64,000 nucleotides of DNA from a virus (lineage: Duplodnaviria > Heunggongvirae > Uroviricota > Caudoviricetes): the IMG/VR virus record IMGVR_UViG_2531839524_000004. One strand, given 5' to 3'. The position numbers were made by a program, and so were the translations under genes. Of the stretch, positions 49,868 to 62,171 are shown piece after piece (the stretch's first letter is position 1; every line of letters starts with the position of its first letter). The notes beneath the pieces were generated by a model that saw nothing but the letters and a program-made list of their open reading frames with translations, did no database searches and was not told where the DNA came from.

Positions 49868-50635
49868 TTATGCCGCGCTAACACTATGTTCAGTCCTAAC
49901 CACCCCAACCTTCACAAAAGGGCTACCGTAGCTTGGTGGCTTCTTGATTAATTTGCCTACATACAGTTTTCTAATATGCTCATCGGCTATTCTGCCAACA
50001 AATTCATAACGTTTTGTGTCGGGGCCAAGAGCTATATCCCTTGTAAAGTACTGCTGAGAACCGGCTTTGACCCAGCATTCAATCTGATAAACTTCCATTA
50101 TCAGCCCACCATATGTAGCGTAGGCATATTTGAGATTCTCGTCTCTTGGAACCTTTGCCCATACGCCACGCGTAGCTTCATATAATGCCAGAGCGGACAT
50201 TCCTGACTTGTAGGTGCTGTTTAGCAGGAAGGCAAGACCGGCGTGCTCAGGAGCAATTTCAGTTTCCTCTTGCAGCACTAAGTGATGGTAGGCGTCCAGT
50301 GATATTCTGCCCATCATGGAACCACTTCCTCGTACCTTATTCGTAAGCTCTCCGACCCCCATAAGGTCGATGCATGTCGCCTCAACAAGTTTGGCTGTGG
50401 TTTCATCCATACCATGACGAAGTATATCTATGCCTAATTTTTTATTAGCCAAAAGTTCTTTGATCCGCATGGATTTGGGAGAGTCATCGGGATACTTGAT
50501 GTGATCGAGACAACGAGTCGATTTGCCTTTTCCTATGTAAAACGGTCTTTTCATCTTGTCTTCTGTATCATAGAGACAGTAAACATAGTATTTAGCCTTA
50601 TCCAATGATCTCGCGTATACCGATAAATCGTCCAT
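49868..50635 (-). CDS. GIY-YIG nuclease-domain protein
   Basis: N-terminal YYVYCLYDTEDK..KRPFYIGKGKSTRCLDH matches the GIY-(10-11)-YIG...R...H layout; 255 aa. Confidence 0.65.
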   Translation of the reverse strand: MDDLSVYARSLDKAKYYVYCLYDTEDKMKRPFYIGKGKSTRCLDHIKYPDDSPKSMRIKELLANKKLGIDILRHGMDETTAKLVEATCIDLMGVGELTNKVRGSGSMMGRISLDAYHHLVLQEETEIAPEHAGLAFLLNSTYKSGMSALALYEATRGVWAKVPRDENLKYAYATYGGLIMEVYQIECWVKAGSQQYFTRDIALGPDTKRYEFVGRIADEHIRKLYVGKLIKKPPSYGSPFVKVGVVRTEHSVSAA

Positions 50636-53043: not shown

Positions 53044-53124
53044 AAAATAAGCGTGGAGAACACCTCCACGCTTGATTCATTGGTGAAACAACTTTTCTTT
53101 TGCCAAACCACAAAAGAAAAACAC

Positions 53125-54306
53125 ATGAGCCTTTATGTTATATCAACATTTAGGTTGGTCACAATATTGCCTGTTAAAAGTGGAATTATCGTGAGCGAGC
53201 TGAAAGAGCTAATTACCGAATTAGATTTTGAACAATGGTTGGATACTGAAGGTATCGTTTATCGACGTGGAGGCGTGAGTACTCGCGGTCGTGAAGTGAA
53301 TATCAAGGAGTGTCCGGTATGTGGCAGCTCCAACTGGAAGGTATATTTCAATCTGACCAGTGGCGTCGGTAAATGCTTCGCTGGTGATCATCCCGAAGAG
53401 ATTCAGTTCAATAAGCTGGTCTTCCTCAAGCACTACAGCGGCAAATCACGACGACAGTTCGAGGAATATGTGCAGAACGCCCTTCTTTCCCAGGGGTGGG
53501 CACCAAAGAAAGAAGAGCTAGTGCTTGCAAGCACAGTCGAGTTAGAGGGGCCAGTTGCACTCCCTCGTCATTACGAGCTTCCTATAGATGGTCGTCTTCC
53601 AGACTATCTGGTTGAACGAAACATATCGCCTGAAATGGCAAAGTATTTTGACCTACGATACTGCGTCGAAGGCAAGCACGCCTATGTAGATCCGTATACA
53701 GATCAGGTTAAAGGACAGATATTCGATATGCGAATACTGATACCGGTTTACGATCTGGATGGGGTAATGAAGACATTTCAGGGACGAGACATTACCGGTA
53801 CAGCAGAACGTCGCTACCTCTTTCCTATGCAGCTTCCAGCTTCAGGTAAGTTTCTCTACAACGGCCATAATGCAGTCGGCAAACAGACGGTAGTTGTCTG
53901 TGAGGGGGCGTTCGATGTTATGGGGGTCAAACGAGCTATTTTTGACGAAGAAACATTACGTGATTACGTGGAACCAATAGGAACGTTCGGGATGCATCTA
54001 TCTGGCAACACCACTCAGGATGCAGAAGATCAGCTGGGCGCGTTCCTGACGCTCAAGGCGCGTGGATTACGTAATGTGATCATGATGTGGGATAGTGAAA
54101 AGCAAGCTATACGCAACACTATGGCCGCAGCTAGGCGACTCACAAGTATTGGCCTTAATGTCAAAGTTGCGTGTTTGGGCGAGGAAGGACTCGACCCCGG
54201 CGATGCGACACCGGGGCAGATTATCAAAGCCTACTATTGCGCAAAACCTTATTCACGACAGCTTGAACTCTTAAGCAAGGTGAAAGGCATTGCAGCACTA
54301 GTTTGA
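53125..54306 (+). CDS. DNA primase (zinc-ribbon plus Toprim)
   Basis: Zn ribbon CPVCGSS...GKCFAGDH; Toprim-like VVVCEGAFDVMGV and MMWDSE; start uncertain (53053/53125/GTG 53191). Confidence 0.7.
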   Translation: MSLYVISTFRLVTILPVKSGIIVSELKELITELDFEQWLDTEGIVYRRGGVSTRGREVNIKECPVCGSSNWKVYFNLTSGVGKCFAGDHPEEIQFNKLVFLKHYSGKSRRQFEEYVQNALLSQGWAPKKEELVLASTVELEGPVALPRHYELPIDGRLPDYLVERNISPEMAKYFDLRYCVEGKHAYVDPYTDQVKGQIFDMRILIPVYDLDGVMKTFQGRDITGTAERRYLFPMQLPASGKFLYNGHNAVGKQTVVVCEGAFDVMGVKRAIFDEETLRDYVEPIGTFGMHLSGNTTQDAEDQLGAFLTLKARGLRNVIMMWDSEKQAIRNTMAAARRLTSIGLNVKVACLGEEGLDPGDATPGQIIKAYYCAKPYSRQLELLSKVKGIAALV

Positions 54307-55335
54307 ACCAGTATTAGTCACGTAAACATTGACCGAAAATGATTTAACTTCTGTGTTGAAGTTGTCAGTCATTACCGCGAGGTAGGCATTCTTGGTATCT
54401 CTGAATTGCTTCAGGATGATTTGAACGTTATCGGTGCAAACAAACGAGGTAGCCAGATTGCCTCCTTTCTCTGAAAAATCCTTTAGGAAAGTGCAGTCAA
54501 TTTTGCCATCATTAGCGGTGAAGGTGGCATCATCACCCTGCCAGGTAAATGTTGCGTTAACGCCTTTATCAATGGATTTAGCAATAAGTCGCTGAGTGGA
54601 GGATTTTGCTTTAGATCTTGCTGCTGATGGTTGGTATTTACCGCTTTCTTTTAGTTCTGCAATGTAATCACAGCCATTTTTATCTTCTTTATCGCAAGCT
54701 GCCTGATAAAGCTCAGCTGCTTTTTTATAATCTTTTTTAACCCCTTCACCATACTCATACATAATGCCAAGATTCGCCAATGCAGATGCACTGCCTAGTT
54801 CGATTCCTTTTTTATAATACTCTATTGCCTTTTTGTAGCTTTTTGGCACGCCTGCGCCAACATAATATAACTGTCCTAGATATGACGCAGATTCAGGGTC
54901 GCCAGCCTCTACTGCAAGTTTGTGATATTTCAGGGAAAGTTTTTGGTCTTTCTTACCCGCAAGTCCTTTATGATAAATAACACCCAGATTGTGATAAGAG
55001 TTGCCTCCAGCTGCATCACCAGCTTTCTTAAAGAGTTCCTCTGCCTTTTTGAAATTTTTATCAACCCCATACCCAAGGGCATACATTATACCTAGAGCAT
55101 TAAACGCTTCTTTGTTCCCCTTAGAAGTCGCCAGTTCAAGCCATTTTCTGGCTTCATCGTAGTTTTTTTCGACACCATGAATACCTTTCATATAGTCGAT
55201 ACCTAAAGCACTCTGTGACTCAACGTCGCCTGCTTTTGCCGCATCGATCAGCTTTTGTATTTCATAGGCATGTGCACTCCCCGAAACAAGTAATAGCGAC
55301 AACATAAAGAAAGATATTGGTTTGAAATGTTTCAT
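54298..55335 (-). CDS. secreted Sel1-repeat protein
   Basis: Signal peptide ...LLLVSGSAHA; at least six Sel1/TPR-like repeats (A..G...A.LG.MY..G.GV.K(D/N)YKKA...Y.KA); unrecognised about 110-aa C-terminal domain. Confidence 0.8.
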   Translation of the reverse strand: MKHFKPISFFMLSLLLVSGSAHAYEIQKLIDAAKAGDVESQSALGIDYMKGIHGVEKNYDEARKWLELATSKGNKEAFNALGIMYALGYGVDKNFKKAEELFKKAGDAAGGNSYHNLGVIYHKGLAGKKDQKLSLKYHKLAVEAGDPESASYLGQLYYVGAGVPKSYKKAIEYYKKGIELGSASALANLGIMYEYGEGVKKDYKKAAELYQAACDKEDKNGCDYIAELKESGKYQPSAARSKAKSSTQRLIAKSIDKGVNATFTWQGDDATFTANDGKIDCTFLKDFSEKGGNLATSFVCTDNVQIILKQFRDTKNAYLAVMTDNFNTEVKSFSVNVYVTNTGSN

Positions 55336-55516
55336 TTTTGGATTTTCACAAGATGGTTAGGTGGTTGTGGCTACTCGGTGTAAGGCTTTGTAATCACCGA
55401 TTGGTAAGGTTACTTCAATTTAGCTTAACTGTCAGCATACCCAATCGCCGAAAAGATAAGTAGATGATTACTTATTAGTGTGTAAGAATACTGCCATCTG
55501 TTAGCTAGGAGTTGGT

Positions 55517-59745: not shown

Positions 59746-59820
59746 GATGGTGTAGCTCAGCGGTAGAGCAGTTGGCTGTTAACCAACTGGTCGGTGGTTC
59801 GAATCCACCCACCATCGCCA
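59746..59820 (+). tRNA. tRNA-Asn (anticodon GTT)
   Basis: Manual cloverleaf: acceptor GATGGTG/CACCATC, D-arm GCTC..GAGC, anticodon loop CTGTTAA, T-loop TTCGAAT, 3' CCA. Confidence 0.8.
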
Positions 59821-59825
59821 ATTTA

Positions 59826-59912
59826 GGGGAGTTAGTCCGTAGAGGTAGCGGTGTAGACTGTAAATCTACTGTCATGGCGACTCGGGTGGTTCGACTCCAT
59901 CACTCCCCACCA
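59826..59912 (+). tRNA. tRNA-Tyr (anticodon GTA), long variable arm
   Basis: Acceptor GGGGAGT/ACTCCCC, anticodon loop CTGTAAA, long variable arm, T-loop TTCGACT, 3' CCA; D-arm non-canonical. Confidence 0.6.
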
Positions 59913-59916
59913 AATT

Positions 59917-59992
59917 GCCGGTTTAGCTCAGTTGGTAGAGCGCCTGCCTTGTAAGCAGGATGTCAGCGGTTCGAGTCCGTTAACCGGCACCA
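59917..59992 (+). tRNA. tRNA-Thr (anticodon TGT)
   Basis: Acceptor GCCGGTT/AACCGGC, D-arm GCTC..GAGC, anticodon loop CTTGTAA, T-loop TTCGAGT, 3' CCA. Confidence 0.8.
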
Positions 59993-60209
59993 ACACAACA
60001 GGAAAGAGCATTGAAACCCGCCGAGACTGCCCTGTTTTAAGCGTAAGTCCGTGCAAACGTCATACAGTGCTCTTTTCGTTGTGGTTGATGCGCAGACTGA
60101 TGCGCGGAAAGAAATGCCCCAGCGACACACGAGGCGAGTTCACACACTGCAATGCAGTCAGTAGCCGGGGTCGCTAAGCCGGAGATCAGTACCGGTAACC
60201 ACAACAATT

Positions 60210-60296
60210 GGAGAGTAGGGAGCATGGTGCTCAAGCGGTCTTGAAAACCGTCCCATTGTGCAAACGATGATGGTTCGATTCCATTACTCTCCGCCA
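60210..60296 (+). tRNA. tRNA-Ser (anticodon TGA), long variable arm
   Basis: Acceptor GGAGAGT/ACTCTCC, anticodon loop CTTGAAA, long variable arm, T-loop TTCGATT, 3' CCA. Confidence 0.65.
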
Positions 60297-60488
60297 GACA
60301 CAGCGTTGAGCGGTTTGGCCTTTTAATCAACTCGATTAAGACTCCGCTAACATAAACCAGACCGCTCAACGCTGTGATAGATAATTACGGCAGACGTTCT
60401 TAACCATAGCTTGCTAACATCCTAGCAACACTTTTTTCAGCGCAAAATTCAAAGGGGCTTCGGCCCCTTTTTTGTTGAACAGTGCAAT

Positions 60489-61751
60489 TTACTTTGCATA
60501 GTCGCCCAATTTTAATATTTCGCGCTTATATTCATTAACCATGCTACTGGATTCAGTATAAATTCGATTTAAAAGATTATCGTTATCTTTATTTTCATTT
60601 ATCTTAATTAGTGCTAATTTATATTCATAGTCATCAAATGCCACAATTAAATGGTGGCCTGGGATTATATCTTCGTCACTCTTAAAGTATATATCTTCAA
60701 GTATGTAATCTAGTTGATTAGATTTTCTTTTCTCGATGTAATCTTCAGCCATAGCTATTACATCATTCCTGTCATTTAACCTGTTTTTTTCGGAAGGCAC
60801 ATCTTCGTAATGTTGCACGATTGAACAACCAATAAGGCGTGGGATGTAAACGTCAAAATGAGTAACTCTATCATTCGCGGTTTTAAGTAGTTCCTCAAAG
60901 TAGTTTCTTACATGTAAAGGCAACTTCTCAAAGTAATCATTAATTATAGGAGAACAAGGAGTTTTATAATTCATAAGAACCGACGGTACGAGCTTTGGGT
61001 GTCGAAACATCCAGTCCCTTTTAACGTCCGATGGAACATAATAACTTTTAATGATATTATCAAAATAATTTATCATTCGAGATTTGAATATTTTGTTGAA
61101 TCTAAGGTTTATGAATGTATCCAGATAAGGCATATTTGAATAAGCATCATCAAAAAATATTTCATCATTGAAAAAATCATATTTATTCAATAAACAACAC
61201 AGTTTTTCCGAATTAATATGTTCACAATAATCGATTTTTAATCCAAAGATAGCAATGATCAACTTCATCTGAGGTGGGATTTTAAAAATTAATTGTGACA
61301 CATACGCTCTTTTTTCCTTGAGACATTCCCCATCAATATAAAATGAACCATCCACATACTCAAATATATTAATAATATGCTTCACATACTGTATTACCTC
61401 ATGCTGTCTTACCAATGGATAATATAGTCTATGTAACTCATCGCTGTTTAAATTAATTTTGTGTTTATCGATAATTTGTTTTGCAAGAAGACATAACTCA
61501 TCATGTTGATTTAATAAGGAATCAAACCATTGTTTAAATGCACTCTTTCGCATTTCGAACAATGATTCAGTTGTTAATTGAAGGGCTGAAAAAGCTGCTT
61601 TTGCACTTTTTCTCGCTTCGTAGGCATTCCATGCTGTTGCTATAAAAGCAAATGCTGTAGCCAATGTTCCAACAGTTTGACCATTTAAAACAACCCAATC
61701 CCAAAAAATGACGGTGAGCAGTAGTATAATAATGAAAATTAAAAAAGGCAT
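60489..61751 (-). CDS. hypothetical AT-rich membrane-anchored protein (cargo gene)
   Basis: ORF track, 420 aa; two N-terminal hydrophobic segments then a large soluble domain; markedly AT-rich versus flanking genes. Confidence 0.6.
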   Translation of the reverse strand: MPFLIFIIILLLTVIFWDWVVLNGQTVGTLATAFAFIATAWNAYEARKSAKAAFSALQLTTESLFEMRKSAFKQWFDSLLNQHDELCLLAKQIIDKHKINLNSDELHRLYYPLVRQHEVIQYVKHIINIFEYVDGSFYIDGECLKEKRAYVSQLIFKIPPQMKLIIAIFGLKIDYCEHINSEKLCCLLNKYDFFNDEIFFDDAYSNMPYLDTFINLRFNKIFKSRMINYFDNIIKSYYVPSDVKRDWMFRHPKLVPSVLMNYKTPCSPIINDYFEKLPLHVRNYFEELLKTANDRVTHFDVYIPRLIGCSIVQHYEDVPSEKNRLNDRNDVIAMAEDYIEKRKSNQLDYILEDIYFKSDEDIIPGHHLIVAFDDYEYKLALIKINENKDNDNLLNRIYTESSSMVNEYKREILKLGDYAK

Positions 61752-61925
61752 GTATGTATTTCACTCTACTAACTATAAAATATTAGGCTAATGTTAACCA
61801 AACAATGCCTTAATTAATAGATTGATCGAGGCTTTAATAGCTTTATAATGCAGACTGTAAAGATAAGTATGCACATACCTATCTTCTTTGTAAGTAAAGT
61901 TGCATATCAATTCTATGAGGTAACA

Positions 61926-62171
61926 ATGACGATCACTATCTACGGACGAGATAACTGCTCATACTGCAAACGTGCGGTCGAGCTGGCGAAGCAACTAAAG
62001 GGACATGGCTACGGTGATTATGAGTACATCGACATCACCACTGCCGGTATCGACAAGGAAAAACTAAGTGAAATTGTTGGTAAACCGGTAGAGACTATCC
62101 CCCAAGTGCTGATCGATGGCCAACCGATTGGCGGATACACAGAACTGGCTGCATACGTCAGCACCCTCTGA
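61926..62171 (+). CDS. glutaredoxin
   Basis: Active site CSYC and C-terminal ...GKPVETIPQVLIDGQPIGGYTEL resemble E. coli GrxA (from memory); start at MTITIYG after RBS GAGG; ORF-track start 61848 is an N-terminal extension. Confidence 0.75.
   Translation: MTITIYGRDNCSYCKRAVELAKQLKGHGYGDYEYIDITTAGIDKEKLSEIVGKPVETIPQVLIDGQPIGGYTELAAYVSTL

What the first reader, a model, noticed from the sequence alone, without database searches (positions are those of the whole stretch)
54298..55335. Secreted Sel1-repeat protein carried as a reverse-oriented gene inside the replication module
The gene is on the opposite strand to all its neighbours, overlaps the primase 3' end by 9 nt, has a signal peptide, at least six Sel1-type repeats and an unassigned C-terminal domain. 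Sel1-repeat proteins often mediate protein-protein interactions in the periplasm or with eukaryotic hosts; here it looks like a lysogenic-conversion cargo gene.
Basis: partly seen in the sequence, partly recalled or inferred. Interest (0 to 1): 0.4.

Follow-up and report, generated by a model that had tools for sequence, protein, structure and literature searches.

The report
Exported Sel1-plus-barrel cargo gene, phage-plasmid
A real but optional passenger gene on an E. coli phage-plasmid encodes an exported protein made of five Sel1 repeats tethered to a small, previously undescribed beta-barrel; its function is unknown, and a protective binder in the cell envelope is my best guess.

Summary
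The ORF at 54298-55335 (-) is real and under purifying selection. It encodes 345 aa: a Sec-type signal peptide, five 36-aa Sel1 repeats with capping helices (not six), a basic linker, and a C-terminal 99-aa domain. No Pfam, NCBIfam or PDB sequence matches that domain. It models confidently as an eight-stranded beta-barrel.

The window is an SSU5-like phage-plasmid. The gene fills a slot after the primase. About 24% of E. coli relatives have it there (61 of 253 genomes). Most relatives have an empty slot, and a few carry other reverse-oriented cargo. Its GC is 41%, against 45-48% for its neighbours.

Alleles are mosaics. The barrel half is 95-98% identical in DNA (dN/dS 0.02-0.07). The signal peptide, the first Sel1 repeats and the upstream DNA are swapped, and alleles carry 5, 6 or 7 repeats.

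The barrel resembles PliC/MliC lysozyme inhibitors and a T6SS immunity protein in fold only.

The "cargo gene" reading is supported. "Lysogenic conversion" stays untested, because there are no expression data and only a weak, conserved promoter-like element. My best guess for function is a periplasmic protective binder or inhibitor, with low confidence. This is an ordinary kind of finding with modest novelty.

The parts
54298..55335 (-). Complete CDS, 345 aa plus stop: exported Sel1-repeat / beta-barrel protein (member of phrog_8741; RefSeq WP_001718051.1 in the near-identical plasmid pRM13322)
   Evidence: ORF list; Pfam Sel1 E=1e-37; phrog_8741 E=1.2e-143; annotated 'tetratricopeptide repeat protein' at the same place in NZ_CP050499.1; exact protein on 507 contigs
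55267..55335 (-). Codons 1-23: Sec-type (signal peptidase I) signal peptide, MKHFKPISFFMLSLLLVSGSAHA, predicted cleavage after AHA
   Evidence: Sequence features computed; equivalent N-termini in full-length homologues. Read by inspection, not with a dedicated predictor
54640..55266 (-). Codons 24-232: alpha-solenoid. N-cap helix (24-37), five 36-aa Sel1 repeats (38-73, 74-109, 110-145, 146-181, 182-217) and a C-cap helix (218-232) carrying the conserved Cys214-x7-Cys222 pair
   Evidence: Pfam, 5 stretches; 36-aa register; AlphaFold2 pLDDT >90 with 12 helices; strong matches to solved Sel1 proteins 6ok3, 4bwr (EsiB) and 1ouv (HcpC)
54598..54639 (-). Codons 233-246: Lys/Ser-rich linker (net charge +4), predicted disordered, and divergent between alleles
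   Evidence: pLDDT <50 for residues 238-247; dN/dS 0.30 and 73-80% nt identity, against 95-98% on both sides; charge
54301..54597 (-). Codons 247-345: conserved eight-stranded beta-barrel domain with two invariant Cys (281, 300). No described sequence family apart from the C-terminal part of phrog_8741
54298..54306 (.). 9-nt convergent overlap (CTAGTTTGA) between the stop regions of the primase gene (+) and this gene (-)
   Evidence: The same overlap is annotated in pRM13322 and CP099286 and in an Enterobacter hormaechei phage-plasmid, and it is preserved in a chromosomal relic
54253..55451 (.). Presence/absence segment relative to phage-plasmids that lack the gene. PhiR41_1 has about 65 bp here
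   Evidence: Pairwise blastn of the window against PV340561.1: homology stops at 54252 and resumes at 55452; annotation of PhiR41_1; empty slot in four further E. coli plasmids
54829..55445 (.). Allele-specific block (upstream region, signal peptide and the first ~3.5 Sel1 repeats) that differs between the 345-aa allele here and the common 381-aa allele
   Evidence: blastn against CP099286.1: 96.8% identity up to 54828, none detected until 55446; sliding identity 0.47-0.68 for codons 1-180 with saturated synonymous sites
55407..55435 (-). Candidate promoter: CTGACA (55435-55430), 17-nt spacer, TAACCT (55412-55407), ending 71 nt upstream of the ATG
   Evidence: Block conserved in the otherwise unrelated upstream DNA of the 381-aa E. 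coli allele (CTGACA-17-TACCAT) and of the chromosomal Pseudenterobacter homologue, but not in Pantoea. It fails the consensus scan threshold in the window. Function is inferred only

Best explanation
This is an optional, horizontally exchanged cargo gene of an SSU5-like E. coli phage-plasmid. It sits in a hotspot just after the primase gene and points the opposite way.

Shown by sequence, comparison and modelling: the product has a Sec signal peptide, a five-repeat Sel1 alpha-solenoid, a flexible basic linker and a small, highly conserved eight-stranded beta-barrel. Two conserved Cys pairs fit an oxidising compartment. The barrel half is under strong purifying selection, and recombination swaps the 5' half together with the upstream DNA.

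Inferred: the gene is transcribed from its own weak promoter while the element is kept as a plasmid. The protein is exported to the periplasm. There it acts as a stoichiometric binder or inhibitor that protects the carrier cell's envelope from an incoming enzyme. That enzyme could be a peptidoglycan- or membrane-attacking effector of competing bacteria, a phage tail enzyme, or host lysozyme. In this model the constant barrel is the core module and the variable solenoid sets partner specificity.

The stated confidence is a compromise. I put about 0.85 on 'exported accessory cargo protein with this architecture' and about 0.3 on the protective-inhibitor mechanism.
For: - Architecture: Pfam Sel1 E=1e-37, 36-aa register and signal-peptide features, AlphaFold2 models.
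- Accessory status: absent from PhiR41_1, Cyrano and CMS-2020a and from four of four further sampled plasmids. Present in 61 genomes against 253 that hold the primase, and always on plasmids.
- Foreign composition: GC 40.7%, against 44.7-48.2% for neighbours.
- Hotspot: SSU5_041 in SSU5; Phd/Doc plus a fimbrial operon in pYPE3-114k. The nearby reverse-oriented gene matches the defence family PD-T4-3.
- Selection: barrel dN/dS 0.023 and last repeat plus cap 0.065. The 5' half is replaced, and alleles have 5, 6 or 7 repeats on a barrel at least 97% identical.
- Other mobile or conflict contexts: a CDI orphan-toxin island in Pseudenterobacter; a position next to prophage tail-fibre and HigB genes in Enterobacter kobei.
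- Promoter-like block conserved across alleles and genera.
Against: - There are no expression, localisation or binding data.
- No sigma-70-like site upstream of the gene passes the scan, and total site counts equal the shuffled expectation. There is no obvious Shine-Dalgarno sequence and no terminator between the convergent genes.
- No toxin or effector gene lies next to it in the window, so the usual criterion for an immunity gene fails.
- The fold matches are generic small barrels at 2-18% identity. The best hits are DUFs, and avidins and outer-membrane barrels score similarly. Foldseek against PDB finds nothing at E<0.001.
- No sequence relation to MliC/PliC was detected.
- Similarity to the immunity protein Pa5087 (5jkp, E=1.5e-6) is far weaker than to unrelated Sel1 proteins.
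- The barrel model rests on only 12 sequences. In the full-length run the same domain reached only pLDDT 60-66.
- In immunity proteins one might expect the most conserved module to be the one facing a conserved toxin. The data cannot say which domain does what.
Confidence: 0.45

Rival explanations
1. Host-interaction or colonisation factor. The Sel1 solenoid binds a eukaryotic or mucosal ligand after release from the cell, as described for E. coli EsiB (binds secretory IgA; my own knowledge) or the Helicobacter Hcp proteins. The gene would then be a virulence- or colonisation-type lysogenic-conversion gene.
For: EsiB (4bwr, E=3e-46) and HcpC (1ouv, E=2e-37) are among the closest solved Sel1 proteins. 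Carriers come from animal and human gut, urine and blood isolates. The signal peptide and Cys pairs fit an extracytoplasmic protein.
Against: Sel1 similarity is not function-specific. Oxalobacter, human SEL1L and designed TPR proteins score comparably. There is no secretion system or autotransporter module to carry it across the outer membrane. Homologues also occur in plant- and environment-associated Pantoea. The barrel has no eukaryote-related match.
Confidence: 0.15
2. Superinfection exclusion. The periplasmic protein blocks DNA entry or the tail-associated cell-wall enzyme of incoming phages, particularly related SSU5-like phages. The variable Sel1 half would track variable phage proteins.
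For: Temperate elements commonly carry such genes (general knowledge; for example P22 SieA and T5 Llp, papers listed). The gene is accessory and allelic. A defence-type gene (PD-T4-3) lies nearby in reverse orientation. The barrel has a lysozyme-inhibitor-like fold.
Against: I found no exclusion protein with a Sel1 architecture in the literature. There is no match in PADLOC beyond noise, E=7.6e-4 to a PtuA ATPase model with 0 stretches. Chromosomal homologues in Pantoea and Pseudenterobacter are not in prophages.
Confidence: 0.15
3. Modulator of the element's own biology. Convergent transcription across the 9-nt overlap would damp primase expression by antisense or transcriptional collision. 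Alternatively, the protein would regulate the element's own lysis enzymes.
For: The convergent overlap has no terminator between the genes. The overlap is conserved wherever the gene is present. The last 18 primase codons differ between plasmids that carry the gene and those that lack it.
Against: Antisense control would not need a 345-aa exported protein under strong purifying selection. Three quarters of relatives replicate without it. Homologues exist away from any primase.
Confidence: 0.07
4. Passenger with no current benefit to host or element, kept only by linkage and recombination.
For: Patchy distribution. Truncated or IS-disrupted copies and relics exist. The expression signals are weak.
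Against: dN/dS is 0.02-0.07 over 146 codons with dS about 0.19-0.27. The barrel is 73-77% identical across genera. The ORF is intact on more than 1,000 contigs. Architecture is conserved in a homologue whose barrel is only 35% identical.
Confidence: 0.08

Closest known systems
Bacterial periplasmic or secreted Sel1-like repeat (SLR) proteins, Pfam PF08238 (e.g. E. coli EsiB/c5321 4bwr, Helicobacter HcpC 1ouv, Oxalobacter SLR protein 6ok3)
   Same: A signal peptide followed by tandem 36-aa Sel1 repeats forming an alpha-solenoid, with E-values of 1e-37 to 6e-51 to solved members. The Cys-x7-Cys pair in the last unit resembles the Hcp disulfide motif (my own knowledge of Hcp proteins).
   Different: Only one Cys pair is present, not one per repeat. 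The array is fused through a flexible linker to a conserved beta-barrel that none of the matched solved Sel1 chains covers; all matches end by query residue ~233. It is carried on a phage-plasmid.
Sel1-type immunity proteins of type VI secretion effectors (Klebsiella Sel1E for VgrG4; Pseudomonas Pa5087, PDB 5jkp)
   Same: Sel1-repeat proteins that neutralise an antibacterial effector. Sel1E also has a ~70-residue C-terminal extension of unknown function (PMC7108748). One homologue of the present family lies in a toxin/immunity-rich CDI island.
   Different: There is no adjacent effector here. Similarity to 5jkp and 5jjo is weak (E about 1e-6 to 1e-7) and no better than to generic SLR proteins. 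The Sel1E extension was described as mostly loop, not a barrel.
PliC/MliC periplasmic lysozyme inhibitors and relatives (Brucella PliC 4mir, E. coli MliC/YdhA 2f09, Brucella PhiA 7dpy, Salmonella PliC 3oe3, Neisseria ACP 6gq4)
   Different: Sequence identity is 6-11%. No match to the Pfam MliC model or to any other family. I could not see the conserved inhibitor loop motif (SxSGAxY, from my own knowledge). Other unrelated barrels score as well or better: DUF4251, DUF1842, Cap15 and avidins.
Morons / lysogenic-conversion cargo of temperate phages and phage-plasmids
   Same: Present or absent between otherwise syntenic genomes, opposite orientation, deviant base composition, sits in a slot that holds other cargo, and encodes an exported protein unrelated to virion or replication functions.
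   Different: An autonomous promoter and terminator are not demonstrated. Expression in the lysogen is unknown.

Membership tests
Sel1-like repeat proteins (Pfam PF08238) | Tandem Sel1 repeats scoring above the Pfam gathering threshold | tested here: met
   127.6 bits against a cut-off of 30.7, E=1e-37, 5 stretches; five exact 36-aa units
Sel1-like repeat proteins (Pfam PF08238) | Helix-turn-helix repeats stacked into an alpha-solenoid | tested here: met
   AlphaFold2 gives 12 helices with pLDDT >90 over residues 25-232. This is a prediction, not an experiment
Helicobacter cysteine-rich (Hcp) subfamily of SLR proteins | A disulfide-forming Cys pair in every repeat (from my own knowledge) | tested here: not met
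   The solenoid contains only Cys214 and Cys222, both in the last unit and cap
PliC/MliC lysozyme inhibitors (Pfam MliC, PF09864) | Eight-stranded beta-barrel of about 90-100 residues | tested here: met
PliC/MliC lysozyme inhibitors (Pfam MliC, PF09864) | Sequence match to the family profile or its conserved inhibitory loop motifs | tested here: not met
   No Pfam family at E<=10 for the window domain. None but noise at E<=1 for all 12 barrel sequences. No PDB sequence hit with the profile
PliC/MliC lysozyme inhibitors (Pfam MliC, PF09864) | Inhibition of c-type lysozyme | not testable with these tools
   Needs an enzyme assay with purified protein
T6SS/CDI immunity proteins | Encoded next to the cognate effector or toxin gene | tested here: not met
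   Neighbours in the window are the helicase, primase, phrog_4248 and ligase genes. A Pseudenterobacter homologue lies among CDI fragments but is not directly paired with one
T6SS/CDI immunity proteins | Specific binding and neutralisation of a toxin | not testable with these tools
   Needs co-expression rescue or binding assays
Moron / lysogenic-conversion gene | Dispensable insertion between conserved genes of otherwise syntenic phages | tested here: met
   Homology breaks at 54252 and 55452 against PhiR41_1. The slot is empty in Cyrano, CMS-2020a and four sampled plasmids. Distribution is 61 of 253 genomes
Moron / lysogenic-conversion gene | Own promoter and terminator | tested here: inconclusive
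   No site upstream of the gene passes the scan and there is no terminator. A CTGACA-17-TAACCT/TACCAT block is conserved in three divergent upstream regions
Moron / lysogenic-conversion gene | Expressed in the lysogen and changes the host phenotype | not testable with these tools
   I found no paper that mentions this protein or Sel1 genes of SSU5-like elements
PHROG 8741 (unknown function) | Full-length profile match | tested here: met
   E=1.2e-143, 480 bits. The profile is 380 positions long, one repeat longer than this allele. The barrel alone scores E=8.6e-66

The most novel reading that the evidence does not exclude
The conserved C-terminal barrel founds a new, Enterobacterales-restricted family of periplasmic enzyme inhibitors. 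It would be an analogue, or a very distant relative, of PliC/MliC. The gene would then be a modular 'orphan immunity' carried by phage-plasmids: a constant inhibitor barrel joined to a Sel1 specificity array that recombination swaps as 5-, 6- or 7-repeat cassettes together with the promoter. Lysogens would gain transferable protection against type VI effectors, phage tail enzymes or host lysozyme.
Probability: 0.15. Interest if true: 0.6.

Novelty: new variant of a known kind. Interest (0 to 1): 0.3.

Why it matters
SSU5-like phage-plasmids are common in E. coli. The backbone was found in 253 of 5,426 complete genomes, and these elements move between clinical lineages.

If this cargo protein protects the envelope, it would be a transferable trait spread by infection. 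The threats could be competitor toxins, other phages or host lysozyme. It would also add an exported Sel1 protein and a new small-barrel domain to the list of mobile defence or immunity modules.

The work also gives three practical results. The slot after the primase is an insertion hotspot in this group. The C-terminal domain now has a fold. The allele structure is mapped: a constant barrel with a swappable repeat array.

If the protein proves to have no such role, this is simply one more uncharacterised accessory gene.

Tried and rejected
- Sequence searches of the C-terminal domain against Pfam, NCBIfam, PHROGs, PADLOC and PDB sequences, as a single sequence and as a profile, found only its own PHROG.
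- A profile search of 1.84 billion representatives gave only 11 hits. Four of them are repetitive or low-complexity artefacts: P0125, P0127, P0128 and P0129.
- Foldseek against PDB gave nothing at E<0.001. The AFDB50 library was unavailable.
- I rejected a structural, assembly or replication role because the gene is dispensable in relatives and has no such homology.
- I looked for mobile-element hallmarks at the cassette borders and for known RNAs, and found none.
- The promoter and terminator scans are not above the shuffled expectation.
- Literature searches for Sel1 genes in SSU5-type elements, for the RefSeq accession, and for Sel1 proteins in superinfection exclusion found nothing relevant.
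- The neighbours of the chromosomal homologues gave no paired partner gene with a recognisable family. The distant member P0126 sits on a 2.3-kb contig with no informative context.
Full report
**Observation.** It converges on the primase gene (53053..54306, +), and the two reading frames share the nine bases CTAGTTTGA. All neighbouring genes with family support between 50910 and 58156 are on the + strand. These are phrog_2500, the DnaB-like helicase, the primase, phrog_4248, phrog_5055 and the ATP-dependent ligase. One other reverse-oriented gene lies at 49868..50635.

The N-terminus, MKHFKPISFFMLSLLLVSGSAHA|YE, has the features of a signal peptidase I signal peptide and no lipobox. I judged this by inspection and from conservation in homologues, not with a dedicated predictor.

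Pfam Sel1 matches at E=1e-37 in five stretches. The sequence divides into five exact 36-residue units (aa 38-217) flanked by single capping helices. "At least six repeats" is therefore a small overcount for this allele. The last ~115 residues match nothing in Pfam, NCBIfam or PDB sequences.

**Genomic setting.** The window is an SSU5-like phage-plasmid of E. coli. The flanks match Escherichia phages PhiR41_1, Cyrano and CMS-2020a at 92-94% and Salmonella phage SSU5 at 79%. They also match about 110-kb non-mobilisable E. coli plasmids.

In PhiR41_1 homology stops at 54252 and resumes at 55452. About 65 bp stand in place of the 1.2-kb segment that holds the gene. Four further E. coli plasmids taken from across the primase ranking all have the same empty 75-nt junction.

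Among 5,426 complete E. coli genomes, 253 carry the primase and 61 carry at least the 3' half of this gene, always on plasmids. Only three have this 345-aa allele.

The same slot holds an unrelated reverse-oriented 321-aa gene in SSU5 itself. In pYPE3-114k it holds a reverse-oriented Phd/Doc pair plus a fimbrial operon. An Enterobacter hormaechei phage-plasmid has a homologue in the same convergent arrangement.

The gene's GC is 40.7% (GC3 36%), against 44.7-48.2% (GC3 46-51%) for its neighbours. Together these points show an accessory gene in an insertion hotspot. It is not a component of the replication module.

**Family and evolution.** Proteins that share the C-terminal domain form a small family restricted to Enterobacterales.

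A profile of the domain searched against 1.84 billion cluster representatives returned 11 hits. About seven are genuine and the rest are repetitive artefacts. One genuine distant member, P0126, has a barrel only 35% identical. It keeps the whole architecture: signal peptide, Sel1-like repeats, Cys-x7-Cys cap, linker and barrel.

Across the family the barrel is 73-99% identical to the window's. The Sel1 part is 36-61% identical and has five, six or seven repeats.

Against the common 381-aa E. coli allele (CP099286.1), backbone homology runs at 96.8% up to 54828 and resumes at 55446. Codons 1 to ~180 are 47-68% identical at the DNA level, with saturated synonymous sites. Codons 186-232 and 247-345 are 95-98% identical, with dN/dS of 0.065 and 0.023. 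The linker between them has diverged.

The gene is therefore a recombinational mosaic. A constant, strongly constrained barrel half is joined to a swappable cassette made of the promoter region, the signal peptide and most of the repeat array. The one-repeat length difference is an exact 36-residue gap.

**Structure.** With the family alignment, AlphaFold2 models residues 25-232 as a 12-helix solenoid at pLDDT >90. It models the linker as disordered. In that run the C-terminal domain reached only pLDDT 60-66.

Modelled alone with a more diverse 12-sequence alignment, the domain reaches pLDDT 88.3 and pTM 0.78 as an eight-stranded up-and-down beta-barrel. Cys281 and Cys300 are invariant. They lie on adjacent antiparallel strands, so a disulfide is plausible, but that is inference. 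Cys214 and Cys222 are conserved in the last Sel1 unit and cap.

- DUF4251, DUF1842 and the Cap15 barrel;
- the Bacteroides T6SS immunity protein BtaiB;
- the lysozyme-inhibitor group: PliC 8.3, MliC/YdhA 7.7, PhiA 7.5, PliC-St 6.6, ACP 6.6;
- avidins and eight-stranded outer-membrane proteins.

Foldseek against PDB finds nothing at E<0.001. Against predicted viral structures the best hits are stand-alone phage barrels of 106-118 aa. One is annotated as a putative lysozyme inhibitor.

This assigns a fold and shows that periplasmic inhibitor barrels are structurally close. It does not establish homology. No barrel sequence in the family matches any Pfam model.

**Expression signals.** The scan finds no sigma-70-like site upstream of the gene and no terminator between the convergent genes. 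Site counts equal the shuffled expectation. There is no clear Shine-Dalgarno sequence.

The upstream regions of the two E. coli alleles and of the chromosomal Pseudenterobacter homologue are otherwise unrelated. They nevertheless share a block, CTGACA-17 nt-TAACCT/TACCAT, at 55435-55407 on the minus strand in the window. I treat it as a candidate promoter only.

**Function.** None of the evidence fixes a function. These points bear on it:
- The protein is built for the periplasm.
- It is optional and exchanged between elements.
- It shares a hotspot and a neighbourhood with toxin-antitoxin, fimbrial and defence-type cargo. The nearby reverse-oriented gene matches PD-T4-3 at E=1.3e-23.
- Homologues elsewhere sit in a CDI orphan-toxin island and beside prophage tail-fibre and HigB genes.
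- Sel1 proteins include proven immunity proteins for type VI effectors, such as Sel1E, which also has an unassigned C-terminal extension (PMC7108748).
- The barrel fold is that of periplasmic enzyme inhibitors.

My best-supported mechanism is therefore a periplasmic stoichiometric binder or inhibitor that protects the carrier's envelope. The constant barrel would be the core module and the variable solenoid the specificity module. I put about 0.3 on that mechanism, and about 0.85 on the narrower statement that this is an exported accessory cargo protein with the architecture described.

The rivals are a host-interaction factor of the EsiB/Hcp type, superinfection exclusion, antisense or collision control of the primase, and a neutral passenger. 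I weigh each in the rivals section. The neutral-passenger and antisense-only readings fit poorly with dN/dS of 0.02-0.07 and with conservation across genera.

**Comparison with known families.** The protein is a member of the Sel1-like repeat family by the Pfam criterion, and of phrog_8741, which has no known function.

It is not an Hcp-type protein, because it has one Cys pair and not one per repeat. It cannot be filed under PliC/MliC, because the fold criterion is met but the sequence criteria are not. It cannot be filed as a T6SS or CDI immunity gene, because no effector lies next to it.

It meets the comparative criteria of a moron. The expression criterion is untested.

**Novelty and score.** The protein is already present in public databases on more than 1,000 contigs, under generic "Sel1/TPR repeat protein" names. 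I found no paper about it.

Three things are new here. The C-terminal domain now has a fold and is shown to be a rare, undescribed sequence family. The constant-barrel/swappable-array mosaic is mapped. The post-primase slot is recognised as a hotspot.

This is a new variant of a known kind and is of modest interest (0.3). The most novel reading that the evidence does not exclude is a new inhibitor family acting as a modular, phage-plasmid-borne orphan immunity. I give that a probability of about 0.15.

Noticed in passing
window 49868-50635 (-): A 255-aa LEM-3-like GIY-YIG protein (Pfam PF22945, phrog_5356) matches the PADLOC anti-phage defence model PD-T4-3 at E=1.3e-23. It is the only other reverse-oriented gene near the replication module, and it is conserved in many related plasmids.
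   Followed up: partly
L009 8001-8549 (Logan ERR4250679 contig, between the trp operon/ompW and cls): A chromosomal relic of exactly this junction. It comprises a 123-aa barrel-only ORF and a convergent 61-aa ORF that is the primase C-terminus, with the same 9-nt overlap. It is 89% identical to window 54109-54597. A fragment of a phage-plasmid has landed in a chromosome.
   Followed up: partly
window 55456-55475: A palindrome, ATAAGTA-N6-TACTTAT, sits just outside the right border of the cassette and about 40 nt upstream of the phrog_4248 gene. Its arms are conserved in PhiR41_1, which lacks the cassette. It may be an operator or promoter element for the downstream replication genes.
   Followed up: no
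L010 4023-4988 (-) = SSU5_041 of Salmonella phage SSU5: A different reverse-oriented 321-aa protein occupies the same post-primase slot. It has no signal peptide and no Pfam or PADLOC match. Its function is unknown.
   Followed up: partly
L011 5278-9170 (E. coli pYPE3-114k, NZ_CP041451.1): In this relative the slot carries a reverse-oriented Phd/Doc toxin-antitoxin pair, a PdcA fragment and a chaperone-usher fimbrial operon. The site can evidently take large cargo.
   Followed up: no
L003 4478-4891 (+) (CP099286.1): Plasmids with the 381-aa allele have an extra 137-aa ORF between the Sel1 gene and the phrog_4248 gene. It has no Pfam or PADLOC match, and it is absent from the window.
   Followed up: no
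window 59746-60296 and 60250-62000: A cluster of four tRNA genes (Asn-GTT, Tyr-GTA, Thr-TGT, Ser-TGA) is followed by a region of very low GC (28-35%) holding a 420-aa reverse-oriented ORF at 60489-61751. This may be another cargo region.
   Followed up: no
protein cluster of the window protein: The exact 345-aa protein is recorded on a contig of 5.06 Mb, although every match in complete E. coli genomes is plasmid-borne. This could reflect an integrated copy or a misassembly.
   Followed up: no
window 53053-54306 (+): The longest primase ORF (417 aa, GTG start) is 46 codons longer than the 371-aa CDS that RefSeq annotates for the same gene in related plasmids. The true start is probably internal, near 53191.
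   Followed up: no
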